NCBI GenBank assembly: GCA_964520295.1
Contig: CAZFMQ010000001.1
Location: forward strand, 84,604 to 148,603
Direction: 5' to 3'
Source: an uncultured Candidatus Saccharibacteria bacterium
GTDB taxonomy: Bacteria; Patescibacteriota; Minisyncoccia; Phycocordibacterales; EsbW-18
Length of the DNA stretch: 64,000 bases
The translations under genes and the position numbers were made by a program. How positions within the stretch are numbered: position 1 is the stretch's first letter; the number at the start of each line of letters is the position of its first letter. Positions 5,961 through 59,282 of the stretch are shown piece by piece. The notes beneath the pieces are model-generated. The model was not told the DNA's origin. It worked only from the letters and a program-made list of their open reading frames with translations, and searched no databases.

Positions 5961-6521
5961 ATGCTCAACTACAACGAAATTACCGCCGGCAAAGTTATTC
6001 TCTTTAACGATGAACCCTATGCGGTGTTGGATTCTCATGTGTTCCGTAAACAACAGCGCAAGCCGGTCAACCAGACAAAACTCAAGAACCTCATTACGGG
6101 CAAAGTGACCGAGAACTCATTTCACGTATCTGAAAAAGCAGAGGAGGCAGAGATTGAGGACAGGGCGTTGACGTACATCTACAACAATCGCGGAGAATGG
6201 TGGTTCCACACAACAGGCAATCCCAGTGATCGCACCACACTTCCTACAGATGTTCTCGGTGATCAGGCACAGTTTCTCAAAGAGAAAATGGAAGTCGTTG
6301 GATTGTATTTCAATGACCGCGTCATCGGCGTGCGCCTTCCGATTAAGGTGGTGTATAAAGTTGTTGAAGCGCCTCCCACCATTCGTGGTAACACTGCACA
6401 GGGGGGCAACAAGTTGGTAAAAATTGAAACAGGAGCGTCCATTACAACGCCGATGTTTGTTGAAGAAGGGGATAGTATTGAAATTAACACGCAGACAGGC
6501 GAATACGTGGGTAGAGCATAG
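5961..6521 (+). CDS. efp: Elongation factor P
   Basis: 186 aa with the KPVNQTKLKNLITG loop region and three OB-like domains. Strong family resemblance. Confidence 0.9.
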   Translation: MLNYNEITAGKVILFNDEPYAVLDSHVFRKQQRKPVNQTKLKNLITGKVTENSFHVSEKAEEAEIEDRALTYIYNNRGEWWFHTTGNPSDRTTLPTDVLGDQAQFLKEKMEVVGLYFNDRVIGVRLPIKVVYKVVEAPPTIRGNTAQGGNKLVKIETGASITTPMFVEEGDSIEINTQTGEYVGRA

Positions 6522-6538: not shown

Positions 6539-6574
6539 GAGCTCTAAGCGCTTGCAGCGCTTAGAGCTCTTTTG
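6539..6574. terminator. Rho-independent terminator: perfect 13-bp stem GAGCTCTAAGCGC/GCGCTTAGAGCTC, loop TTGCA, then TTTT
   Basis: Read directly at 6539-6573, between convergent efp (+) and recA (-). Confidence 0.8.
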
Positions 6575-6613
6575 CTATATGGTACGTGATTTCTGTTCCC
6601 TGTGTCCCTTATT

Positions 6614-8204: not shown

Positions 8205-10424
8205 CTATGCCTCGTCATCCGCACCACCATCATCCGTTGCGGTGCCATGTGCTACCAAAATTTCACGCGGCTTGCTTCCATCGGCAGGACCGATAACGCC
8301 TCGTTCTTCCAAAATATCCATAAGACGTGCCGCGCGCGAATAGCCAATACGCAATTTGCGTTGCAAGTACGATGTAGACGCTTTGCCGGCGCGAATCACA
8401 ATGTCGCGCGCATCCTCAAACAAATCATCATCAATCTCATTATCGTCTTCTATACCGCTACCAGAACCGCTCTCACCACCGAGATCAATGGCATATTCCA
8501 TTTCCGTTGTGCCGTCATCATGGCTTCGCAAGAAATCAGTCACTTTTTTCACTTCTTTTTCAGAAATAAACGCTGATTGAATACGTCGCGGCTTTGCCAT
8601 CTCACCGCCTTGATAGAGCATGTCACCAGCACCGAGCAATTTTTCGGCACCACTGCTATCCAAAATAGTACGTGAGTCAATTTGTGATGCCACCTGCAGG
8701 GCAACGCGCGCCGGCACGTTCGCCTTAATAAGCCCAGTGATGACGTTGACTGAAGGACGCTGTGTTGAAAGTATGAGGTGAATACCCACGGCGCGCGACA
8801 TTTGCGCCAAACGCACAATGGCTGATTCCAGCTCACGCGGGAACGACGTCATGATGTCGGCGAGCTCATCAATAACCACCACGATATACGGCATTGCTTC
8901 AGGCGCGTCAGGTTGCTCGGCGCTACGAATAGCACCTGCTTCACCCACAACGCTTTCATGATATGAGGCAATATCGCGCACGCGATGTTCCTGCAACACG
9001 TTATAACGGCGTTCCATTTCTTTGGTGAGCCATTTGAGCGACAAAATTGCCTTCTTTGGATCTGTAATCACTGGAGTCAGCAAGTGCGGAATACCGTTGT
9101 ACAGCGTCAATTCCACGCGCTTCGGATCAATCATCACAAAACGCAATGTGTTCGGGCCATTTCGGAACAGCAGAGAATTGATGAAGGCGTGAATGGTAAC
9201 GGATTTACCAGAACCCGTTGCACCTGCAATCAATGCGTGTGGCATCTTTGCGACGTTGGCAAACACTGACACACCTTCCACATCACGTCCTACGGCAACC
9301 ATCAATGGATTGCGCGAGTTGGTGTACTCATCAGAGGCAAGGAGCGATGCAAGTCCAATAGTTGCTTTTGCAGTATTTGGTACTTCAATACCGACAAGTG
9401 CCTTGCCAGGGATTGGTGCTTCAATACGCACAGGGTGCGCCGCCAGCGCAAGTTCAAGATTTTTCTGCAAGCCGAGAATTTTGTTGAGACGCACACCTTC
9501 GGCGGGCTTCATGGCGTAGCGCGTTACCGATGGACCGATTGAGATTTCATCCATGGCCACATCAATACCAAAGTTTTGCAGTGTGCGTTTGATGATATTT
9601 GCATTTGCTTTGATATCACCGACGCCGGGTTTGCCGGAATCTCGCGCAAAGATAGAGAGTGGCGGTGGCGTGTATGCACCTGCAATTGCAGGAATGGCTG
9701 TCAGCGCCACCGCTTCTTTTTTACCAAATGAGAATAGCCCTGCTTTTTTGACGCGTGGCTCGTCATCTTCTGCATCATCTGCATCGGCATCATCCGACGC
9801 CTCATCATCTGCATCAGGCGTTTGTTGGGGAAGGGTAGAGACAACCTCTACATCATCATCTTCAAAATCTTCTTCGTCTTCTTCTTGCTCGGCGCGGAGT
9901 TCTGCACGACGCTCTTGCCATGCACGCCACGCTGCAACAGGGTGTGTGTTGAGGAGCACTAACAGAGAAATAGAGAAGAGTGCAAGCAATGAGACGGCGG
10001 TTCCAGCGATATCAAATAAATTGACAAGCGGATGTGTAATGAAAGCACCGATGAGCCCGCCACTTTCAGGAAATGCTAGCTCAAGCAATCCAAGACCTGC
10101 GAGCAAAAAAAGTGCAGAGCCGATGATATTGGTAGCGGCAAAGTTCGCCTTCTCTGATCTAAAGTAATTGATTGAGAGCAGAAGGGTGAGGGTGGGGAGG
10201 AGGAAGTAGCCGACGCCAAGTAGGTGTGAGAACCATGAAAATACGTGCGAACCAACAACCCCCGCTTTATTGAATGCAGAGAGAAAAAGGAAGAGTGTGA
10301 TAAGTAAAAAAACAACTGCGAGTACCGCGTACCAGGTCTCTTCTTGTAGTCCAAGAGAGAGAGAAGAACGTTCTTTTTCAACGATGCTGCGCTTGTCTTT
10401 CTTTGCTGATTTTTTCTTTGCCAT
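8205..10424 (-). CDS. ftsK: DNA translocase FtsK/SpoIIIE: N-terminal membrane domain, acidic D/E linker, C-terminal motor plus gamma domain
   Basis: Walker A AGATGSGKS, VVIDELADIM, and the C-terminal winged-helix gamma domain (RAARLMDILEERGVIGP). Confidence 0.95.
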   Translation of the reverse strand: MAKKKSAKKDKRSIVEKERSSLSLGLQEETWYAVLAVVFLLITLFLFLSAFNKAGVVGSHVFSWFSHLLGVGYFLLPTLTLLLSINYFRSEKANFAATNIIGSALFLLAGLGLLELAFPESGGLIGAFITHPLVNLFDIAGTAVSLLALFSISLLVLLNTHPVAAWRAWQERRAELRAEQEEDEEDFEDDDVEVVSTLPQQTPDADDEASDDADADDAEDDEPRVKKAGLFSFGKKEAVALTAIPAIAGAYTPPPLSIFARDSGKPGVGDIKANANIIKRTLQNFGIDVAMDEISIGPSVTRYAMKPAEGVRLNKILGLQKNLELALAAHPVRIEAPIPGKALVGIEVPNTAKATIGLASLLASDEYTNSRNPLMVAVGRDVEGVSVFANVAKMPHALIAGATGSGKSVTIHAFINSLLFRNGPNTLRFVMIDPKRVELTLYNGIPHLLTPVITDPKKAILSLKWLTKEMERRYNVLQEHRVRDIASYHESVVGEAGAIRSAEQPDAPEAMPYIVVVIDELADIMTSFPRELESAIVRLAQMSRAVGIHLILSTQRPSVNVITGLIKANVPARVALQVASQIDSRTILDSSGAEKLLGAGDMLYQGGEMAKPRRIQSAFISEKEVKKVTDFLRSHDDGTTEMEYAIDLGGESGSGSGIEDDNEIDDDLFEDARDIVIRAGKASTSYLQRKLRIGYSRAARLMDILEERGVIGPADGSKPREILVAHGTATDDGGADDEA

Positions 10425-10470
10425 GCTACTCGTATTGTAACACGCAATGCCTGTGGATAACTCAAAAATA

Positions 10471-10632
10471 GGGAACGGGGAACAGATGACAGGGAAGAGA
10501 AAATACGAAGAAGACCAAATCTCCCATTGGAGATTCAGTTTCTAGATATTCAGGGTTCGGAGCCCCACTTGGGGCTCCGAACCCCAAGTGCATTCACCCC
10601 GTTCCCTGTGAACTAGCCCCCGTTCCCAACCA
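10471..10632 (+). repeat. MITE/REP-like intergenic element, copy 1. Imperfect terminal inverted repeats (GGGAACGGGG...ACAGGGAA) enclose a perfect 13-bp hairpin (10554-10583) and the conserved tail AAGTGCATTCACCCCGTTCCCTGTGAACTAGCCCCCGTTCCC.
   Basis: Left end 10471-10498 gggaacggggaacagatgacagggaaga. The reverse complement of the right end 10595-10627 is gggaacgggggctagttcacagggaacgggg. The hairpin ggttcggagcccc-actt-ggggctccgaacc was read directly. Confidence 0.55.
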
Positions 10633-10745
10633 TTGGTGGACAACCCCCAGCATCTGTTTTTGAGTATATAAATCACACAAAAAACACTTGTCTTTTACGT
10701 GTCCGAGAGTAGTATTGAGTTGTCTTTGAAACTATATCGGACATT

Positions 10746-11528
10746 ATGGAACGCCAAAAAGACAATCAAAAAGACATTCTCCCCTCTTACCTTTCGGCAA
10801 ATGACTTTTATGACCATGCTCGTAAAATCATTACTGCTATTTACCTCCTCACGGACATACTCAAAGACGAGGAACCAATCAAGTGGACTCTACGAACGAA
10901 CATCATTGAAGTAATGTCTGATACGGGTGTTCTCTCTCGATCATTCGGTGCTCGTCAAACCGACGGTGACGAAAAGGACATTATTGAGAAAATTACCAGC
11001 ATCCAATCACTCCTTGATGCAGGGGTTTTTGCAGGTCTCGTTTCCCCTTCTAATCACGAGATTCTTTCCAAAGAGCTTGCTGTATTTCAGAGAAACGCTG
11101 TTCGCCACTTTCATGAAGTTGAAGGTAATCAATCATTGATAACAAGTGCACTATTCTCTTCATTCTCATGGGACGATGTGCCGCAGATTTCCGAACCTCT
11201 TAAAGGACATTCAGATACATATAAAGGACATATAAAGGACACTCAAACCAACATAAAGCATGTTGCCACAAAAAGGACTTCGGTAGCATCAAAAAAGACA
11301 ACCAAAGCGAAAAACGCAACAGAAAACAATGGTGCCACACAGTCCGATAGAAAATCAAAGATTCTCAGCCTTATCCGCACGAAAGGCAACGTCATGATAA
11401 AAGACATAACACCAGATTTCCCTGGTGTGAGCGAAAAAACCATTCAGCGTGATTTGTTAGACCTTGTTGCAAAAGGAAGTATCTCAAAGACGGGTGAACG
11501 CCGCTGGACCACATACTCTATTATATAA
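10746..11528 (+). CDS. Hypothetical protein: unknown N-terminal domain, K/T/S-rich linker, C-terminal DeoR-like winged-HTH (SEKTIQRDLLDLVAKGSISKTGERRWTTY). Visibly lower GC than its neighbours.
   Basis: ORF 260 aa. HTH pattern at the C-terminus. A-rich codon usage. Bracketed by repeat copies 1 and 2. Confidence 0.6.
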   Translation: MERQKDNQKDILPSYLSANDFYDHARKIITAIYLLTDILKDEEPIKWTLRTNIIEVMSDTGVLSRSFGARQTDGDEKDIIEKITSIQSLLDAGVFAGLVSPSNHEILSKELAVFQRNAVRHFHEVEGNQSLITSALFSSFSWDDVPQISEPLKGHSDTYKGHIKDTQTNIKHVATKRTSVASKKTTKAKNATENNGATQSDRKSKILSLIRTKGNVMIKDITPDFPGVSEKTIQRDLLDLVAKGSISKTGERRWTTYSII

Positions 11529-11538
11529 GCGTCTTCTC

Positions 11539-11613
11539 GTGGCTTAGCCTCCTCTTGGAGGCTAAGCCACTAAGTGCATTCACCCCATTACCTGTGAACT
11601 AGTCCCCGTTCCC
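11539..11613 (+). repeat. Repeat element copy 2: perfect 14-bp hairpin GTGGCTTAGCCTCC-TCTT-GGAGGCTAAGCCAC followed by the conserved tail TAAGTGCATTCACCCCATTACCTGTGAACTAGTCCCCGTTCCC
   Basis: Read directly. The tail is about 90% identical to copy 1 while the hairpin sequence is unrelated. Confidence 0.55.
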
Positions 11614-11805
11614 TAATGTGTAACTTTTTACCCCCTTTTTGGCATTCCCAGAGTAGATAGGAGGATAGTACCGAAACCTTGAAATAAGGCACCGTTTTGT
11701 GCTATAGTGGGCGCTGGGAACAGTCCCAAAAAATGCACAAAATAATCCTCAGAAAACCCGCAAAAAAGTCGCAAAAACGACAAGGGTTATCCACAAGGAT
11801 TTTTG

Positions 11806-11831
11806 GTGTTGTGTGCGGGTAAACCTATAAT
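11806..11831 (+). promoter_or_regulatory. Candidate sigma70-type promoter (TTGGTG-17 bp-TATAAT) inside the ~470 bp non-coding leader upstream of the secreted protein gene
   Basis: Sequence tttTTGGTGttgtgtgcgggtaaaccTATAATggg. Hexamer match only. Confidence 0.25.
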
Positions 11832-12096
11832 GGGTACACGCACGGAAAGAAAGTTTTGGGAGCTGACGACTGCACTTTGACAAATCAATAGAGAGTACGG
11901 AAAAAAGAAAGCGCACAAACGTTTTTCTTCTTTCTAAAATTATTTCTGCCACGATGATATGGGTAGAACGGCACATACTGTGAGTCAGTATTCACTTACG
12001 CAAACTATACCCCGAAGCGGTTGGCCGTCCGGGTGTAGTGATTAAAAAAGTTATTAGTTATCAGCTCCCTATAACCAAGGGAAAAAACAAAAAATT

Positions 12097-13929
12097 ATGT
12101 TAAAGAAAGTAGGCCTCGTAGGTCTTCTCGCCGCAGCTGCATTTGCACTTCCTGCATCAGCAGCAACGGTTGAAGAACTTCAGGCACAAGTAAACGCGCT
12201 TCTTGCACAGCTTGCAGGTTTGCAAGGTGGTTCAAGCAGCTCAGCAGGTTGTTTCACTTTTACCCGTGACCTTACAGAAGGTTCAACAGGTGCAGATGTA
12301 ACAGCACTTCAGAATTATCTCGCAAGCACTGGACACTTTTCAGTAGCCGCAACGGGATACTTCGGTTCAATTACTCGCGCATCAGTTGCTTCATGGCAAG
12401 CAGCGAACGGTGTTGCTCCAGCAGCGGGATACTTTGGCGCAATTTCACGCGCAAAGTACAACTCAATGTGTGGTAGCACAGGTTCAACTGGATCAACCGG
12501 TTCAACTGGCTCAACAGGTTTGAGTGGTGGTGAGGCGGATCTCTCAGATCTCTCACTCTCATCAGGCGACGACTCAACACTTGAAGAAGGTGAAGATGGT
12601 GATGTAGCAGAATTGGAGTTTGACGTTGACGACGCAGACGTAGAAGTTCAGCGTGTTGACCTCGTATTCAAGAACACATCATCACCTGCATCAGGTGATA
12701 AGAAGCCTTGGAAGGTTTTTGAAGACATCACACTCATGCTTGATGGTGATGATGTAGCAGATGTTGACGGTTCTGATGAAGATAACTGGAGCGAGCTCGC
12801 AAATGACGAGTACCGTCTCCGCTTCTCAGGTATTGGCGCAGTTGTAGAAGGTGACGAAACAGCATTGTTTGTTGTGAACGTTGCACTTCAGAACAGCGTT
12901 AAGGATTCAGACGACGGTGTTGAATGGAGCTTGTGGGTTGCAGACGATGGTATCCGCGCACTCGATGGTGAAGGTATTGACCACACTCTCGGTGATGCAG
13001 ATGAAATGGCGGATGCAGACGACGTAGTTTCATTTGACATTGACGAGGAAGGTGCAGACGAAGACCTCAACCTCAAGTCATCATCTGATGATCCAGATGC
13101 AACGACATTCCTCGTTGATGAAGACGACAAATCAGATTGGTTTGAAGCATTCATCTTCAACATTGAAGCTGAAGATGGTGATATTGACCTTGAAGATCTC
13201 GTAATTACTGTTACAACTGACTCAGCTGCATACAACATGGTTGTAGATGATGTTCGTGCCGTAATTGATGGTCGCACCATCAAGAAGGACACCGTAACAA
13301 ACTCAACCTCAACTACAGCTACTGTCTCATTTGATATCGATGGTAAAGTTACCGTTGATGCAGACGACACTGTAGAAGCAGTTATTGAGTTGCGCTTCCG
13401 CCCAACAGCAGAAGGTGCAAACTACGGTTCTGGAACAACAACTGTTGAAGTTGCAACTGTATCTATCACAGGTGAAGGTGCTATTGACCACACAGACACT
13501 GCAACTATCACTAGTGCAGAACACACACTTTCAACATCACCTGCAACGATCTCTAACGTAAGTTGGTCATCGTCAGAGTCAGGTAATGGTGCAACAGGTG
13601 TGATTGACTTCTTCTTCACTGTATCTGCAGATGAAGACGATGTTGATGTTCTTGGTTCAGAAATCATGGACACCATCACAGGTGCTGGTACATTTGACGC
13701 AGGTGTAGGTACTACATCAGCATCAACGTACGGTAACCTCTCACGTGTATCAGGTGATAGCGTAACACCTATCTCTGGTGGATATCGTGTGGGTGAAGGT
13801 GATTCTACCCGCTTCCGTGTTCGCTACAACGCATCAAGCGCTGGTGTATACGAAGTGACTATGATTTCAGTCGCAGGGCAAGCAGTTGCCGACGACGACC
13901 AGTTGTCACCTTCATTGATCCTCGAATAA
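12097..13929 (+). CDS. Secreted protein: signal peptide, two peptidoglycan-binding-like repeats, an (STG)5 linker, and a long D/E-rich beta-strand region
   Basis: Signal peptide MLKKVGLVGLLAAAAFALPASA. Repeats GADVTALQNYLASTGHF...ATGYFGSITRASVASWQAANGV and ...PAAGYFGAISRAKY resemble PG_binding_1 and recur in the M23 peptidase at 18663-19628. Confidence 0.7.
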   Translation: MLKKVGLVGLLAAAAFALPASAATVEELQAQVNALLAQLAGLQGGSSSSAGCFTFTRDLTEGSTGADVTALQNYLASTGHFSVAATGYFGSITRASVASWQAANGVAPAAGYFGAISRAKYNSMCGSTGSTGSTGSTGSTGLSGGEADLSDLSLSSGDDSTLEEGEDGDVAELEFDVDDADVEVQRVDLVFKNTSSPASGDKKPWKVFEDITLMLDGDDVADVDGSDEDNWSELANDEYRLRFSGIGAVVEGDETALFVVNVALQNSVKDSDDGVEWSLWVADDGIRALDGEGIDHTLGDADEMADADDVVSFDIDEEGADEDLNLKSSSDDPDATTFLVDEDDKSDWFEAFIFNIEAEDGDIDLEDLVITVTTDSAAYNMVVDDVRAVIDGRTIKKDTVTNSTSTTATVSFDIDGKVTVDADDTVEAVIELRFRPTAEGANYGSGTTTVEVATVSITGEGAIDHTDTATITSAEHTLSTSPATISNVSWSSSESGNGATGVIDFFFTVSADEDDVDVLGSEIMDTITGAGTFDAGVGTTSASTYGNLSRVSGDSVTPISGGYRVGEGDSTRFRVRYNASSAGVYEVTMISVAGQAVADDDQLSPSLILE

Positions 13930-13970
13930 TAATTCTTGGACAATGGTTCTCTGAAATGAGAACAACAAAA

Positions 13971-13996
13971 ACACCTCCGTAAGGGGGTGTTTTTGT
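13971..13996 (+). terminator. Rho-independent terminator ACACCTCC-GTAA-GGGGGTGT followed by TTTTTG
   Basis: Read directly after the stop codon at 13929. Confidence 0.75.
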
Positions 13997-14082
13997 ATTG
14001 GAGAAAATAACCTTAGTAACCGAACCACTCGTACGAATGGTTCAGTTACTACGTGGGTATATCTGGTATACTAGAGAGCAAT

Positions 14083-14262
14083 ATGAAGCCACTGTTTAAT
14101 CGCACATTCTTTAAGTTTGTGTTTGGGTTTTTGGGGATACTGCTCGTGGGTTTCCTCATTCTTTTTGCGGTTAATGCGGTCATGTTTGCGAAAGGCGTGC
14201 ACCTTGAAGATGATTCCAATGCTGTTCTGACGTGTATAACAAGCTCCGGTGTGCCCTGTTAG
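14083..14262 (+). CDS. Possible small membrane protein (about 59 aa)
   Basis: ORF 14053..14262 with internal ATG 14083 (MKPLFNRTFFKFVFGFLGILLVGFLILFAVNAV). Followed by a terminator. No homology recognised. Confidence 0.35.
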   Translation: MKPLFNRTFFKFVFGFLGILLVGFLILFAVNAVMFAKGVHLEDDSNAVLTCITSSGVPC

Positions 14263-17487: not shown

Positions 17488-18540
17488 ATGATGGATATTG
17501 TGTTAATCATTTTTTTGGCGATTGTGGCGCTTGGTATGGGTGTGCTGATTTGGTTATTTGCGCGCGGTAAAAAAACAACCACTGCCGACGATGCAGGGTT
17601 ATCACTCATTCTGCAGCAGCTTAACGAAGTATCGCGCACCGTAGATCAAAAACTCGGCGAAAGTACCAAGACACTGCACGAGTCATTGCGTGGTCAGCTG
17701 TCAGAATCAACACGCATTGTGCGTGAGGTAACGGAAGGGCTGACGAAGCTTGATGAAACGAATAAGCAGGTGGTGTCGTTTGCCGATCAACTCCAATCAC
17801 TGCAAGATATTCTGCAAAATAGCAAACAACGCGGTGCACTTGGTGAGTACTATCTTGAAAAAGTGTTGCAAGATGTCTTTGCACCAACGCAGTACGCATT
17901 GCAGTACCAATTCAAAAATGGGGAAGCGGTTGATGCGGCGCTCTTTTTGCAGGACAAAAAGATTTTGCCGATTGACTCAAAGTTCTCTCTTGAAAATTAT
18001 CGTCGCATTTTGGAATCACGTGATCCCGAAGAGCGCGCACGTTTGGAGAAGGCATTTGTGAATGATTTGAAATTGCGCGTCAAAGAAACGAGTAAGTACA
18101 TTCGTCCTGCAGAAAACACCATGGATTTTGCATTCATGTTCATTCCTTCAGAGGCGATTTACTATGATTTGCTCTCCAACAAGGTGGGCGTTATAGATTT
18201 AGAAGAATCAATTATCCAGCGTGCGTATAAGGAATATAAGGTGATTATTGTTTCTCCTACGACATTCGTGGCGTACTTGCAGACCGTGATGCAAGGGTTG
18301 CGCAGTTTGCAGATTGAGGAGCAGGCAAAGGATATCCAGAAGCGTGTCGGCGATTTAGGCAGGCACCTGACAAGCTACAACGAGTACATGACCAAACTGG
18401 GTAACGCGCTTGGTACGACGGTGAATCATTTCAACACTGCGCACAAAGAGCTCGGCAAGATTGATAAAGATGTGGTGAAAATCGCGGGTGGTGCCGTTGG
18501 TATTGAAACCCTTACACTCTCAAAGCCACAGCAAGAGTAA
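17488..18540 (+). CDS. rmuC: DNA recombination protein RmuC
   Basis: N-terminal TM helix, long coiled-coil, and the conserved C-terminal RmuC region (FAFMFIPSEAIYYDLL...IVSPTTFVAYLQTV). Confidence 0.88.
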   Translation: MMDIVLIIFLAIVALGMGVLIWLFARGKKTTTADDAGLSLILQQLNEVSRTVDQKLGESTKTLHESLRGQLSESTRIVREVTEGLTKLDETNKQVVSFADQLQSLQDILQNSKQRGALGEYYLEKVLQDVFAPTQYALQYQFKNGEAVDAALFLQDKKILPIDSKFSLENYRRILESRDPEERARLEKAFVNDLKLRVKETSKYIRPAENTMDFAFMFIPSEAIYYDLLSNKVGVIDLEESIIQRAYKEYKVIIVSPTTFVAYLQTVMQGLRSLQIEEQAKDIQKRVGDLGRHLTSYNEYMTKLGNALGTTVNHFNTAHKELGKIDKDVVKIAGGAVGIETLTLSKPQQE

Positions 18541-18544
18541 ATAG

Positions 18545-18606
18545 TAGGGAGCAGAGACTAGTTCACAGGCCCGCCCGTACCGACTGGTACAGTCGGGCGG
18601 GGAACA
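18545..18606 (-). repeat. Repeat element copy 3, inverted orientation: GC-rich imperfect hairpin (18570-18601) adjacent to CCTGTGAACTAG (as CTAGTTCACAGG, 18558-18569) and GGGGAACAG
   Basis: Read directly, between convergent rmuC and the M23 peptidase gene. Confidence 0.5.
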
Positions 18607-18662
18607 GAAAATATACAAGCCCGAAACACCAATTGGTGTTTTGGGCTCGTATCCCAACCGTA

Positions 18663-39494: not shown

Positions 39495-39526
39495 GCCCCG
39501 CCCCGACATGTCGGGGCGGGGCTTTC
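39495..39526 (+). terminator. Rho-independent terminator GCCCCGCCCCGACA-TG-TCGGGGCGGGGC then TTTCC
   Basis: Read directly after the groEL stop. Confidence 0.75.
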
Positions 39527-42649: not shown

Positions 42650-43938
42650 ATGGAAACAACAGCGCCAGAGAAGTTGAAATACGTTCTGTATGCTCGAAAA
42701 AGTACCGAGAACGACGAACGACAGGCACTCTCGATTGATTCGCAAGTAAAGGAAATGTTACAGATTGCCGAGCGAGAAAGTCTTGAAATAGCGGATATAC
42801 GAAGAGAGGCGCATTCCGCAAAAGATTCAGGACAGCGACCAGTCTTCAAAGAACTTCTTAGCGACATTAGGCAAGAGAAGTTCAACGCGATTCTCACTTG
42901 GGCACCAGATCGTCTTTCGAGAAATGCAGGAGATCTGGGTCGATCGTAGACCTTATGGACGAGAAGAAATTGATATCCATTCGCACTTATGGACAGACCT
43001 TCTCCAACTCCCCGAACGAAAAGTTCCTCCTCATGATTCTCTGTTCTCAAGCGAAACTAGAGAACGATAATCGAGGCATCAATGTAAAACGAGGTCTACG
43101 CGCGCGGTGTGAGCTAGGACTATGGACGACTACGCCGCCAACAGGCTACCTCAAAGAAAAGCGGCTCGACAGGAAGAACGAATGCTATCCAGATCCAGAC
43201 AGAGAAGCCGTGATACGGCAGATATTTGAGAAAGTGGCGTACGAAAAATGGTCAGGACGCAAACTCTATCACTGGCTCACGTTCGAGCTGAACTTTAGAA
43301 CTGCCGCAGGAAAGAAACATTTAAGTCTTGGAAATATCTACCGCATACTTGAGAACACTTTTTACTACGGAGCATTTGAGTATCCGCGAGACAGCGGCAT
43401 CTGGTATCAAGGCAAGCACAAACCGATTATCACTAAGGAACTTTTTGATTTAGTCCAAGAGCAGATAAAGAACTCTCAGCTCGTCCGCAAGGAAAATATC
43501 GAGTTTGCCTTCACGAAGATTATGAAGTGCGGACTATGTGGCTCTGGTGTATCGGCAACCGAAAAGTTTAAGAAGCAGAAGAATGGACCATCGAAACGGC
43601 ATGTCTATTATGGTTGTACCAAAGCGAGAGACAAGAATTGCAAATGCGGGTATATCAACGAAACGGAGCTGATCGAGCAACTGCAAGATCTTACCGATAA
43701 GCTGGACCTCAAGAAAACGCCAATGCAGAACAAAATCAAAATGGAGATCAGGAGATTCAAGAAGTTCCAGGGAATGGTCACCGGAAAGAGCGACAGCATC
43801 GATGTCGATGATGTGGATATTCAGAACTACGCAAGATTTCTACTCAAAGAGGGTGATGATCAGGAGAAACGAGATTTGCTTGGTTGTTTAAAAGGAGAAA
43901 TATTATTAAGTAATAAGCTCATTTCATTAAAGCTTTAA
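42650..43938 (+). pseudogene. Large serine recombinase: resolvase catalytic domain, recombinase domain and zinc ribbon, interrupted by a 1-nt frameshift at about 42940-42950
   Basis: ORF 42650..42949 has catalytic YARKSTE and ends ...LSRNAGDLGRS*. ORF 42898..43938 continues IVDLMDEKK... in another frame with CGLCGS...YYGC...CKCG. The join needs one extra nucleotide in GGTCGATCGTAGAC. Confidence 0.75.
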
Positions 43939-55992: not shown

Positions 55993-56030
55993 AAGCCCCG
56001 CCCTGTACCACAGGGCGGGGACTTGTACTC
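55993..56030 (-). terminator. Terminator CCCCGCCCTG-TACCA-CAGGGCGGGG with T-run on the - strand (complement of GAAAAAG)
   Basis: Read directly. Sits downstream of the small - strand ORF. Confidence 0.7.
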
Positions 56031-58438: not shown

Positions 58439-58547
58439 GATGCGGCGCCATTGTAACATTTTTAGGCGTGATTGGTATACTATGAGTGAGGGAACAGGGA
58501 ACGGTTCATGGGGAACGGAAATCACATAGCACGTAACACATATCATT

Positions 58548-59282
58548 ATGGCAACAAAAATTATCGCAGGTTTGGCACTCCTCTTTGCACTCGGCGCAGG
58601 TGCCTTTTACTACTCTGAGAAAAACACAGTCAACACACCAGCAGACACCGATGAGCAAGTATTCTGTACCATGGACGCACTCATGTGTCCTGATGGTTCT
58701 GGTGTTGGACGCGTTGGTCCTGCGTGTGCATTCCAAGCATGTCCGCAACAAGCATCATTTGTCGGCGAATTGCAGAGCACAACAGGCGGTTTTCAATTGG
58801 TGTTTGAGCCAACAGACGCCACGATGCCAATGCAGGAGTACACAATGCCACTAATTGTGGAGGATGCAGATGCGTTCAAAAACTTTGTCGGCAAACGAGT
58901 AGTTGTACGTGGTACTTTCACACACGGAAGCACCTACAACGTTGAAAGTATGGAACTTGCTACAGAAGCAAACACTACGCACGGTATTGTTGCACTCGGT
59001 GAGACGAAAGTAATCAATGGTGTCAGCATCACACTCAATGCAGTGACACAGGATAGCCGTTGCCCTATTGATGCGGTCTGTATTCAAGCAGGTTGGGTTG
59101 AAGCAGATGTGACACTCTCACGCGGTCCTGATACAAAAACAGTGACACTTGATTCTCGCGAAACCTACCCGTTCACTATTTTTGATATTGCCATGATTTC
59201 TATTGCGCCTGCACGTATGGCAAGCGAACCATTTGATGACAATGCGTACCGCATTACGTTTGAAGTGACCCTTCGTCGCTAA
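58548..59282 (+). CDS. Hypothetical secreted or membrane-anchored protein with a Cys-rich N-terminal segment
   Basis: Signal anchor [20 protein letters not shown]. Beta-rich. Confidence 0.55.

What the first reader, a model, noticed from the sequence alone, without database searches (positions are those of the whole stretch)
10440..11625. Family of hairpin-plus-conserved-tail repeat elements, one pair bracketing a low-GC wHTH-protein gene
Two elements (10554-10627 and 11539-11613) share an ~45-nt tail AAGTGCATTCACCCC(G/A)TT(C/A)CCTGTGAACTAG(C/T)CCCCGTTCCC. Each tail is preceded by a different perfect 13-14 bp GC-rich hairpin. Copy 1 additionally has imperfect terminal inverted repeats: GGGAACGGGGAACAGATGACAGGGAA at 10471, versus the reverse complement of the right end, GGGAACGGGGGCTAGTTCACAGGGAACGGGG. 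The two copies flank gene 10746-11528, whose composition is clearly AT-richer than ftsK or the secreted-protein gene on either side. This resembles a MITE/REP-like element family mobilising or marking a gene cassette. Alternatively they are paired regulatory sites, as GGGAAC(R)G half-sites recur upstream of ftsK and of the gene at 58548.
Basis: seen in the sequence. Interest (0 to 1): 0.7.

Follow-up and report, generated by a model that had tools for sequence, protein, structure and literature searches.

The report
REP-like hairpins fused to heptamer-repeat arms
The two "hairpin plus tail" units are small non-coding repeats (a REP-like hairpin next to a degenerate 7-base repeat arm) that entered the spacers of a Campbellbacteria genome; the gene between them is an old resident, not a mobile cassette.

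Summary
There are two perfect 14-bp hairpins (10553-10584, 11539-11570), each followed by a 42-nt tail that is 39/42 identical. An inverted partner at 10471 makes copy 1 a 157-nt stem-loop element.

The "cassette" reading fails. The wHTH gene sits in the same recA-ftsK | wHTH - PG-binding neighbourhood in relatives down to 48% identity. Those relatives lack the elements.

The units are composites of two parts.

1. **Tails.** They are arms of degenerate tandem heptamers (GGGAACR on the opposite strand). The window holds six arms. Arm A is near-canonical for a widespread class of heptamer-repeat hairpin elements (TA|GGGAACAGGGAACAGGTKACAGGGAACAG...). This class occurs in metagenome contigs of 38-68% GC and often abuts stop codons. 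The closest described relatives are cyanobacterial STRR repeats.

2. **Hairpins.** They carry CTTRG...CYAAGTG(C), the signature of palindromes around, inside and dispersed from a RayT-like Y1 transposase gene in related Campbellbacteria. One relative has such a doublet in the same ftsK-wHTH spacer.

No transposase was found in the window, so mobilisation and function are inferred. Verdict: an ordinary kind of thing (REP/MITE-like selfish repeats) in an unusual host and combination. Interest is moderate.

The parts
10471..10627 (.). Copy 1, complete element (157 nt): arm A, small hairpin, GC hairpin, junction, arm B. Lies between the divergent ftsK and wHTH promoters.
   Evidence: arms 21/26 complementary; fold z about -9.3 on both strands. 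Absent from the same spacer in L002, L004 and L007.
10471..10510 (+). Arm A: GGGAACG GGGAACA GATGACA GGGAAGA GAAAATA, preceded by TA. A near-canonical heptamer array.
   Evidence: Lag-7 self-identity 0.58. 24/26 identical to arms in 12 or more metagenome loci. Matches the class consensus at 11 of 14 positions that the search pattern did not force.
10514..10539 (.). Small AT-richer hairpin (AATCTCC-CATT-GGAGATT core) inside copy 1.
   Evidence: flagged as terminator-like on the - strand.
10553..10584 (.). GC hairpin of copy 1 (14-bp stem). Overlaps a second palindrome, CACTTGGGG-N7-CCCCAAGTG; the CTTRG...CYAAGTG signature is present on both strands.
10586..10627 (-). Arm B plus junction. On the - strand: GGGAACG GGGGCTA GTTCACA GGGAACG GGGTGAA TGCACTT.
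   Evidence: Heptamer periodicity is weak (0.34).
11539..11570 (.). GC hairpin of copy 2 (14-bp stem), starting 10 nt after the wHTH stop codon. The 3' arm plus flank, GCCACTAAGTG, is identical over 11 nt to the palindrome at the 3' end of the RayT-like gene in L007.
11572..11613 (-). Arm C plus junction, 39/42 identical to B, followed by TA. No partner arm.
   Evidence: The whole block 11529-11613 is an insertion relative to L002 and L007.
18547..18616 (+). Arm D: GGGAGCA GAGACTA GTTCACA GG, then a 31-nt GC hairpin (18570-18600), then GGAACAGAAAATATAC. Starts 6 nt after the stop codon of the RmuC gene (17488-18540) and is preceded by TA.
   Evidence: (I2, I6).
58490..58547 (+). Arm E: GGGAACA GGGAACG GTTCATG GGGAACG GAAATCA CATAGCA CGTAACA CATATCA. 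Fills the space from a TGgTATACT -10-like box to the ATG of gene 58548.
   Evidence: lag-7 identity 0.57. 28/30 identical to an array in L090.
6574..6608 (-). Arm F: GGGACAC AGGGAAC AGAAATC ACGTACC ATATAGC. Starts 5 nt after the recA stop codon, before the intrinsic terminator.
   Evidence: lag-7 identity 0.54. Not present after recA in L002, L004 or L007.
14011..14052 (.). Lone imperfect palindrome, CTTAGTAACCGAACCA...TGGTTCAGTTACTACGTG, at the site where relatives carry the RayT-like gene. Possibly a relic.
   Evidence: The gene is present at this position in L004, L007, L132 and L136.
10746..11528 (+). Context, not part of the element: resident wHTH (DeoR-type HTH) gene, conserved in position.

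Best explanation
The 'hairpin + tail' units are composites of two kinds of small non-coding intergenic repeat. Both entered or expanded in the spacers of this Candidatus Campbellbacteria lineage after it split from the sampled relatives.

Component 1, the hairpin, is a REP-type palindrome. Its loop, 3' arm and flank follow CTTRG-N9-16-CYAAGTG(C). In related Campbellbacteria the same signature marks species-specific palindromes. These lie beside and inside a RayT-like Y1 (HUH) transposase gene and are also scattered elsewhere.

Component 2, the tail, is one arm of a degenerate tandem-heptamer array (GGGAACR, seen as YGTTCCC on the tail strand). It belongs to a widespread class of heptamer-repeat elements. 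In that class two arrays face each other (outer ends TA|GGGAAC...), form a long stem-loop, and often sit directly on or after a stop codon.

Copy 1 is a full inverted pair (A+B) enclosing two hairpins. Copy 2 is one arm plus a palindrome. D, E and F are further single arms.

How it works (inferred, not shown):
- The palindromes are moved as single-stranded hairpins by a RayT-like enzyme acting in trans.
- The heptamer arms change length by replication slippage and spread by an unknown, possibly TA-targeting, insertion process.
- B and C, which share a fixed junction (AAGTGCATTCACCCC), arose by a recent copy event 986 bp apart.
- If transcribed, the stem-loops would act as transcript-end, insulator or stabiliser structures.

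The wHTH gene between them is not mobilised.
For: **The gene is resident**
- Synteny is conserved in L002, L004 and L007.
- The protein family has 314 homologues.

**The elements are lineage-specific**
- They are absent from both spacers in the three relatives.
- blastn-short finds no hit in the relatives' loci L002-L008.
- They are fixed in a second strain.

**The arms are heptamer arrays**
- Six arms in the window show period 7: lag-7 identity 0.475 and lag-14 identity 0.468, against 0.28 +/- 0.03 in shuffles (0 of 2000 reach it).
About 77 of the 120 are true arrays of 4 or more units.
- The consensus is CA/TA-GGGAACAGGGAACAGGTGACAGGGAACAG. Unforced positions are 57-75% conserved.
- 32 of the 120 arrays are preceded by TA. 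21 carry the identical 27-mer.
- Inverted partner arrays lie downstream in 26 loci and upstream in 4, giving 60-220-nt hairpin elements. Several have TA at both ends.
- Array starts overlap or lie within 0-7 nt of stop codons in about 30 cases, by crude gene calls. Window arms D and F do the same.
- A heptamer array also follows a stop codon in a Campbellbacteria relative (L136/L137) but not at the orthologous site in others.

**The hairpins are REP-like**
- The signature is shared in alignment A2.
- The motif occurs in the window only at B and C.
- Palindromes flank and sit inside the Y1 gene in L004, L007, L132 and L136.
- L002 carries a doublet of the L136/L137-type palindrome in the same ftsK-wHTH spacer (I6, 94).
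- The Y1 protein passes the Pfam Y1_Tnp threshold. Its only NCBIfam hit is REP-associated tyrosine transposase, and JGI names homologues RayT.
Against: - Only 64 kb of this genome could be read, so genome-wide copy number is unknown.
- The stems of B and C are essentially unrelated (5/14 identical), whereas a classical REP family shares its stem.
- No Y1 transposase is encoded in the window, and it is missing from the syntenic site.
- Arms B and C have only weak heptamer periodicity (0.34) and link to the class through A, D, E and F.
- The right end of copy 1 is followed by AA, not TA.
- The search pattern was derived from the window, so 17 positions of each metagenome match are forced.
- Gene calls in the metagenome loci are crude.
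- Nothing about transcription, mobility or function was measured.
Confidence: 0.6

Rival explanations
1. The GGGAAC arms are operator or activator sites for a DNA-binding protein (the adjacent wHTH protein or another factor). This factor would co-regulate ftsK, the wHTH gene, the PG-binding protein gene and gene 58548. The hairpins would be incidental terminators.
For: - Hexamer repeats lie at spacings of 7, 14-15 and 21 nt.
- In four of the five longer arms (A, B, C, E) the GTTCCC end points toward a nearby promoter-like site. A and E lie about 45 nt behind divergent TGTTACAAT -10 boxes. B and C lie 61-65 nt upstream of -35 boxes. This is my reading.
- GGGAACRG is enriched 5-fold.
Against: - Orthologous wHTH proteins keep their own conserved upstream motif (TTGTCTTT x2), but relatives have no GGGAAC arms.
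- Arms D and F lie after stop codons, and C is antisense to the wHTH gene.
- B and C are 93% identical over 42 nt, including non-repeat spacer. That is typical of recent copying, not of operator sites.
- The same array sequence occurs in Acidobacteria-like and cyanobacteria-like contigs.
Confidence: 0.13
2. Copy 1 is a classical MITE of a DDE (IS630/Tc1-mariner-like) transposon that duplicates TA. The other arms are solo terminal inverted repeats left by deletions, and the hairpins are cargo.
For: - Terminal inverted repeats match at 21/26 and the element is 157 nt.
- TA precedes arms A, C and D.
- In the metagenome class, outer ends are consistently GGGAAC-out (26 versus 4). TA is found at 32 of 120 starts, and at both ends in L037, L049, L029 and L116.
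Against: - No transposase lies between distant inverted arrays. They flank def, tgt, pheS, rplT, carB and pyrG.
- None was seen in the window ORFs scanned.
- Array length varies in 7-nt steps, even at orthologous sites (L102 versus L116).
- Single arms outnumber pairs.
- The right flank of copy 1 is AA.
Confidence: 0.15
3. The elements are RNA-level signals. (GGGAACA)n read as (ACAGGGA)n would be a platform for a GGA-binding RNA-binding protein (CsrA-like, cold-shock or S1-like). Alternatively copy 1 is a small-RNA gene, acting in 5' and 3' untranslated regions.
For: - Arm E spans the whole presumed 5' leader of gene 58548.
- Arms D and F lie in 3' UTRs in sense orientation.
- Arrays abut stop codons in sense orientation in the metagenome set.
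- TAACTGA heptamer repeats directly upstream of start codons have been proposed to act in translation (PMC4679880).
- The match to the CsrA SELEX core ACA-R-GGA is from my memory, not tested.
Against: - B and C are on the opposite strand to any gene reading into them.
- Copy 1 sits behind both divergent promoters, and the scan found no sigma-70-type promoter-like site inside or next to it.
- There is no Rfam match.
- The elements are not conserved in relatives.
Confidence: 0.08
4. The two 42-nt direct repeats are attachment or recombination sites (integron attC, IMEX/dif-like or integrase att) bracketing an acquired gene cassette.
For: Direct repeats flank a slightly AT-rich gene next to ftsK.
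Against: - The gene is syntenic in relatives that lack the repeats.
- There is no integrase next to it.
- There is no attC-type R''/L''/L'/R' organisation and no dif-like 11-6-11 palindrome in the tail (read).
- Other arms do not bracket genes.
Confidence: 0.03

Closest known systems
REP / BIME sequences and their RAYT (REP-associated tyrosine transposase) genes ('REPtrons'), as described in Enterobacteria and Pseudomonas (from my knowledge of the literature)
   Same: - Short GC-rich palindromes lie in intergenic spacers.
- A conserved short motif sits at the foot of the hairpin (here C[CT]AAGTGC).
- In relatives, a single Y1 HUH transposase gene is flanked by its own species-specific palindromes, which are also dispersed.
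- Inverted pairs form larger hairpins.
   Different: - The two window hairpins have unrelated stems.
- No RAYT gene was found in the 64 kb.
- The CPR enzyme is about 225 aa and scores only 29 bits against the NCBIfam REP_Tyr_transpos model (cut-off 80).
- In relatives the palindromes also lie in frame inside the transposase gene.
- The hairpins are joined to a non-palindromic heptamer arm.
STRR (short tandemly repeated repetitive) 7-bp repeats of filamentous cyanobacteria (PMC2670836 and references in it)
   Same: - Tandem heptamers lie in intergenic DNA and can form hairpins.
- Function is unknown; transcript stability or translational coupling has been proposed.
- Several low-GC metagenome hits look cyanobacterial by gene content, for example L063 next to hydrogenase genes (my inference).
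   Different: - The window arms are degenerate (at most 2 near-identical units in a row) and few.
- The host is a CPR bacterium.
- The unit is GGGAACR rather than the classical STRR units I recall (CCCCAGT, TTGGTCA, CAACAGT).
- The conserved 4-unit terminal block, the TA flank and the stop-codon adjacency are, as far as I could find, not described.
TAACTGA heptamer direct repeats of marine Beggiatoaceae, cyanobacteria and some Bacteroidetes (PMC4679880)
   Same: - Intergenic heptamer arrays are often in 'forward' orientation directly upstream of start codons, as with arm E.
- Distribution across phyla is patchy.
- Arrays are absent from orthologous spacers of close relatives.
- Written as GATAACT, the unit resembles GGGAACA and GATGACA.
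   Different: - The unit sequence differs.
- Those arrays are mostly direct repeats, with a single inverted set reported.
- No link to palindromes or Y1 transposases is reported.
Correia elements and other bacterial MITEs (from my knowledge: about 100-155 bp, 26-bp terminal inverted repeats, TA duplication)
   Same: The size (157 nt), the roughly 26-nt imperfect terminal inverted repeats, the TA at the ends of several copies, the intergenic location and the long RNA hairpin if transcribed.
   Different: - No cognate transposase is known.
- The termini are built of tandem heptamers and vary in unit number.
- Single arms are common.
- TA duplication is not demonstrated.

Membership tests
REP/RAYT system | Unit is a short (about 20-40 nt) palindrome able to form a hairpin, located between genes | tested here: met
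   Perfect 14-bp stems at 10553-10584 and 11539-11570, both intergenic.
REP/RAYT system | Copies within one genome share the palindrome sequence and a conserved flanking motif | tested here: inconclusive
   The flank and loop signature CTTRG...CYAAGTGC is shared, but the stems are only 5/14 identical. Only two copies are visible.
REP/RAYT system | Many dispersed copies per genome | not testable with these tools
   Only a 64-kb window plus 6-kb and 1.3-kb Logan contigs of this species are reachable. The tail pattern found no related sequence in genome contigs (one hit, in a Terracidiphilus MAG contig, which I take to be chance) and nothing in metagenome contigs or viral contigs.
REP/RAYT system | Cognate Y1 (HUH) transposase gene flanked by the same palindromes | tested here: not met
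   tblastn with the L004 and L007 proteins finds nothing in the window. The syntenic site 13930-14083 holds only a lone palindrome. The feature is met in relatives L004, L007, L132 and L136. The rest of this genome is untested.
MITE (DDE-transposon derived) | Terminal inverted repeats on a short (<300-500 bp) non-coding element | tested here: met
   Copy 1: 157 nt, ends 21/26 complementary.
MITE (DDE-transposon derived) | Target-site duplication flanking the element | tested here: inconclusive
   Copy 1 has TA on the left and AA on the right. TA is next to C and D. TA is at both ends in some metagenome elements. No empty site was available.
MITE (DDE-transposon derived) | An autonomous element with the same termini encoding a transposase | tested here: not met
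   None was found in the window or between distant inverted arrays in 5 metagenome loci. Other genomes were not surveyed.
STRR-type heptamer repeats | Tandem repetition with a 7-nt period | tested here: met
   Lag-7 and lag-14 identity are 0.475 and 0.468 against 0.28 in shuffles (0 of 2000 reach it). The signal is strong in A, E, F and D and weak in B and C.
STRR-type heptamer repeats | Several near-identical units in a row | tested here: inconclusive
   A has 4 consecutive units within 1 mismatch of class units. B, C and E have at most 2 (criteria, 98).
Integron gene cassette / attC | Imperfect palindrome with conserved R''/R' core sites (GTTRRRY); integrase nearby; cassette content variable between relatives | tested here: not met
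   No such cores are seen in the sequence. The neighbouring genes are FtsK and a PG-binding protein, not an integrase. The gene is syntenic in relatives.
Intrinsic (Rho-independent) terminator | GC-rich hairpin followed immediately by a U-tract | tested here: not met
   The scan does not flag the B or C hairpins. They are followed by (C/T)AAGTGCATT. Other hairpins of the window do have A/T tracts.

The most novel reading that the evidence does not exclude
The GGGAACA-type heptamer arms are the termini of a cross-phylum family of tiny mobile hairpin elements. The family is seen here in Acidobacteria-like and cyanobacteria-like contigs and in CPR. These elements would insert at TA, preferentially into or just after stop codons (TA+G regenerates TAG), and would be mobilised in trans. 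The fixed REP-palindrome/arm junction in copies B and C would then be a trace of mobilisation by a RayT-like Y1 transposase. That would give the 35-year-old STRR repeats a mechanism.
Probability: 0.15. Interest if true: 0.7.

Novelty: new member of a known kind. Interest (0 to 1): 0.38.

Why it matters
CPR/Patescibacteria genomes are small and are usually regarded as poor in repeats and mobile DNA. Here, one Campbellbacteria lineage shows two kinds of selfish or structural intergenic repeat side by side. Its relatives carry a conserved RayT-like gene with species-specific palindromes.

The side result may matter more than the window itself. A specific four-unit heptamer block, TA|GGGAACAGGGAACAGGTKACAGGGAACAG, recurs in contigs of very different base composition, faces outward in inverted pairs, and sits on stop codons. 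If that holds in a proper survey, it makes the origin and function of STRR-like heptamer repeats testable. Their function has been unknown since their description in cyanobacteria.

For annotation, the practical message is that direct repeats flanking a gene are not evidence of a cassette when synteny says otherwise.

Tried and rejected
- **Known RNA family.** Rfam gave nothing at gathering thresholds and only noise at E<=10 in 10300-12200. Typical metagenome arrays also had no family.
- **Replication origin.** Perfect DnaA boxes flank the wHTH gene, and a fine-scale cumulative GC skew dips near 11.6 kb. At 2-kb scale, however, skew is positive on both sides of the region. The dip reflects the minus-strand recA-ftsK genes, so I dropped this.
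- **ECF-sigma promoter (GGAAC-N16-17-CGT), LexA box, dif/Xer site, KOPS.** Spacing or symmetry does not fit the sequence (read).
- **Exact-tail scans.** Genome contigs gave 1 hit, in a Terracidiphilus MAG contig, which I take to be chance. Metagenome contigs and viral contigs gave 0. This species is not in those collections.
- **PWM scan of the window for more full arms.** It found only the training copies. D and F were found by eye from GGGAACRG hits.
- **Search for the window species' own RayT gene.** Of the homologues of the L007 protein, the closest three are other species. P0123 occurs in the same sample (SRR30015103) as the strain variant L010, but its contig has no nucleotide similarity to the window.
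- **Literature search by sequence strings.** It returned only primers and unrelated hits.
- **Canonical 27-mer in viral contigs.** 1 hit in 2.9 million contigs, so the arrays are not phage-borne.
Full report
**What is in the sequence**

- Two perfect 14-bp, 4-nt-loop hairpins lie at 10553-10584 and 11539-11570.
- Each is followed, one base later, by a 42-nt tail. The tails (10586-10627 and 11572-11613) are 39/42 identical, with none expected by chance.
- The sequence at 10471-10496 is an imperfect inverted copy (21/26) of the end of the first tail.
- 10471-10627 is therefore a 157-nt element. It folds at -80.6 kcal/mol on the + strand and -95.4 kcal/mol on the - strand, with z about -9.3 in both cases.
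- GGGAACRG occurs 12 times in the window against 2.3 expected.
- A second strain from another sequencing run carries both units with three SNPs.

**The organism and the gene in between**

- Homologues of the 260-aa protein (C-terminal DeoR-type HTH) come from Candidatus Campbellbacteria and other Patescibacteria. There are 314 hits, mostly full length.
- In three relatives (59%, 50% and 48% identity) the gene lies in the same neighbourhood: EF-P, RecA, a small protein, FtsK | wHTH, PG-binding protein..., YqeY, P-type ATPase.
- Its promoter-like region with two TTGTCTTT repeats is conserved in those relatives.
- None of the three has the hairpin-tail units in either flanking spacer, and blastn-short finds nothing there.
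- Relative to L002 and L007, the block 11529-11613 is an insertion between the stop codon and a conserved (A)ATGTAAC-TTTTT stretch.
- The gene's GC (0.418) is third lowest of 44 ORFs but within 2 sd.
- The gene is therefore a resident, and the units are lineage-specific additions to its spacers.

**The tail is a heptamer-repeat arm**

Read on the opposite strand, the tails and the left end of copy 1 fall into 7-nt units:
- A: GGGAACG GGGAACA GATGACA GGGAAGA GAAAATA.
- B: GGGAACG GGGGCTA GTTCACA GGGAACG GGGTGAA.

Following GGGAACRG hits gave three more arms.
- D (18547-18616, +) starts 6 nt after the RmuC stop codon and is split by its own GC hairpin.
- E (58490-58547, +) fills the leader of gene 58548.
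- F (6574-6608, -) starts 5 nt after the recA stop codon.

Over the six arms, identity is 0.475 at lag 7 and 0.468 at lag 14, against 0.28 +/- 0.03 in shuffles; 0 of 2000 shuffles reach the observed value. The signal is strong in A, E, F and D and weak in B and C.

**The same arm exists far outside this genome**

The exact tail occurs nowhere relevant in the three public collections. Its single genome hit, in a Terracidiphilus MAG contig, I take to be chance.

Its 17 specified bases would by my own rough estimate give on the order of a hundred chance hits. The hits, however, were coherent:
- About 77 of 120 are arrays of 4 or more units.
- The consensus is GGGAACA GGGAACA GGT(G/T)ACA GGGAACA G.
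- Positions not fixed by the pattern are 57-75% conserved.
- 21 loci carry the identical 27-mer.
- 32 arrays are preceded by TA.
- Arm A matches this consensus at 11 of the 14 unforced positions and is 24/26 identical to a dozen loci. Arm E is 28/30 identical to L090.

Architecture of the class:
- The arrays typically face an inverted array 5-400 nt downstream (26 loci, against 4 with one upstream).
- This gives 60-220-nt hairpin elements with GGGAAC ends outward. Several have TA on both sides. Copy 1 has this architecture.

Position relative to genes:
- With crude gene calls, the outer end overlaps or lies 0-7 nt after the stop codon of the gene reading into it in about 30 cases. TA|G forms a TAG, or TAGAACA/TGAAACA appears as the first unit. 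Arms D and F behave the same way.
- Distant inverted arrays flank housekeeping genes, not transposases.

Hosts:
- One locus carries Acido-Lenti-1 RNA.
- Low-GC loci look cyanobacterial by gene content (my inference).
- A Campbellbacteria relative has GTGAATA GAGAATA GTGAATG... directly after a stop codon, where the window, L007 and L132 have nothing.
- The 27-mer is almost absent from viral contigs.

No paper in the library contains these sequences. The nearest described things are the following.
- Cyanobacterial STRR 7-bp repeats are hairpin-forming and of unknown function (PMC2670836).
- TAACTGA heptamer repeats are intergenic, often lie just upstream of start codons, and are absent from orthologous spacers of close relatives (PMC4679880).

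**The hairpin is REP-like**

Relatives carry a roughly 225-aa Y1 transposase gene between the PG-binding protein gene and a 60-aa gene.
- It passes the Pfam Y1_Tnp threshold (29.7 bits against a cut-off of 23).
- Its only NCBIfam hit is REP-associated tyrosine transposase, at 29 bits, below the cut-off of 80.
- It has 2591 homologues at E<=1e-10. Those that carry a source name come from Patescibacteria lineages, and JGI calls some of them RayT.

In each species the gene is preceded by, and contains in frame, perfect palindromes. Their inner stem is species-specific, but their foot is conserved as CACTNAG...CTNAGTG(C):
- L004: CTTAGAAGTTAAACTTCTAAGTG.
- L007: TTAGTGGCGAGGCCTCT...AGAGGCCTCGCCACTAAGTG.
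- L132: CACTCAGTAGCTAAGTTACCAAGT/AACTTGG...CTGAGTGCTC.
- L136/L137: CGTCCCTAAGGGACG.

Links to the window:
- The B and C hairpins carry the same signature, CTTGG-N13/14-C(C/T)AAGTGC. It occurs in the window only there.
- C shares GCCACTAAGTG (11/11) with L007.
- L002 has a doublet of the L136/L137-type palindrome in its own ftsK-wHTH spacer. In a sister species, RayT-type palindromes have thus landed in the very spacer that holds copy 1.
- The window lacks the Y1 gene at the syntenic site, where only a lone palindrome remains (14011-14052). tblastn finds none in the 64 kb.

**Most likely explanation**

The units are composites of a REP-type palindrome and a heptamer-repeat arm. Both are non-coding repeats that colonise spacers.
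- Shown: the repeats, their absence from orthologous sites, the class membership of arm A, the shared palindrome signature, and residency of the gene.
- Inferred: mobilisation of the palindromes by a RayT-like enzyme in trans; slippage and an unknown, possibly TA-directed, insertion process for the arms; a recent copy event producing B and C with their identical junction; and stem-loop effects on transcripts.

I put 0.6 on this overall picture and considerably less on any one mobilisation step.

**Rivals**

- Operator sites for a transcription factor (0.13). The orientation of A, B, C and E towards promoters argues for it. Absence from relatives with a conserved wHTH protein, the 3'-end copies, and occurrence in other phyla argue against it.
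- A DDE-type MITE with TA duplication (0.15). The architecture fits, but no transposase is found, unit number varies, and single arms are common.
- An RNA-level signal or small RNA (0.08).
- Cassette or att sites (0.03), contradicted by synteny.

**Limits**

- Only 64 kb of this genome is available.
- The metagenome pattern came from the window.
- Gene calls in metagenome loci are rough.
- Taxonomic labels for those loci are mostly inferred.
- Nothing was measured experimentally.

**Verdict**

The finding is a new member of known kinds (REP/RAYT-type palindromes, STRR-like heptamer repeats) in an unexpected host, with an interesting unexplained cross-phylum heptamer block as a by-product.

Noticed in passing
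window 10452-10460 (-) and 11787-11795 (+); L004 about 5862 and 6930; L007 about 5878 and 6908; L002 about 6897: The only two perfect DnaA boxes (TTATCCACA) in the 64 kb flank the wHTH gene. Both are conserved in position in the relatives. GC skew at 2-kb scale does not indicate an origin here, so they may be DnaA-controlled promoters.
   Followed up: partly
window 11679-12096; L002 6810-7170; L007 6815-7177; L004 6835-7197: The roughly 400-nt non-coding region upstream of the PG-binding protein gene shows 70% mean column identity across four species whose wHTH proteins are only 48-59% identical. It contains two promoter-like sites and conserved blocks (TACTGTGAG-TCAGTAT, ACGCAAACTA, TAGTGATTAAAAA-GTTATTAGTTATCAG). 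It is a candidate cis-regulatory leader RNA with no Rfam match. The window has two private insertions in it, one carrying a solitary GGGAACAG just after the -10 box.
   Followed up: partly
L004 9469-9499; L007 9491-9516 and 9932-9971; L137 in-gene CGTCCCTTAGGGACG: The RayT-like Y1 transposase genes of related Campbellbacteria contain their own species-specific palindromes in frame within the coding sequence, at two sites. The encoded peptide segment therefore differs between species (QLRSLTSKSGK, QLRGLATQSDK, QLRPLGTQLEK).
   Followed up: partly
window 10689-10740 and the same position in L002, L004, L007: A promoter-like region (TTGTCT-16 nt-TAGTAT) lies upstream of the wHTH gene and is conserved in all four species. 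A second TTGTCTTT(GAAAC) box downstream of it is present in the window, L002 and L007 but not in L004. This is the probable autoregulatory operator of the wHTH protein.
   Followed up: no
window 18570-18600, 39495-39522, 55996-56020: Three GC-rich hairpins share CCCGCCC...GGGCGGG arms, and two also share a TGTACCA centre. All lie just after gene ends without a clean T-tract. They may form a second small hairpin family.
   Followed up: no
window 42898-43938, within the low-GC stretch 43-46 kb (GC 0.39-0.41): This ORF has Recombinase and Zn_ribbon_recom domains (large serine recombinase type, no N-terminal resolvase hit). It sits next to the prolyl-tRNA synthetase gene in the most AT-rich part of the window. 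It may be a remnant of an integrated element.
   Followed up: no
L102 813-891 versus L116 8276-8496; L013 versus L022; L032 versus L067: Pairs of metagenome contigs with clearly orthologous flanks carry heptamer-hairpin elements of different length (78 versus 220 nt) or with different inner parts at the same site. This shows rapid turnover of these elements.
   Followed up: partly
L026, L028, L100, L108, L126: Five acidobacteria-like loci have the array directly after a gene ending ...ALRYE* (a permease-like C-terminus). This suggests the array travels with, or repeatedly lands behind, one paralogous gene family.
   Followed up: no
window 5961-6521 versus L002, L004, L007: The EF-P gene is on the + strand (convergent with recA) in the window. 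In the three relatives it lies on the same strand as recA, which indicates a local inversion next to arm F.
   Followed up: no
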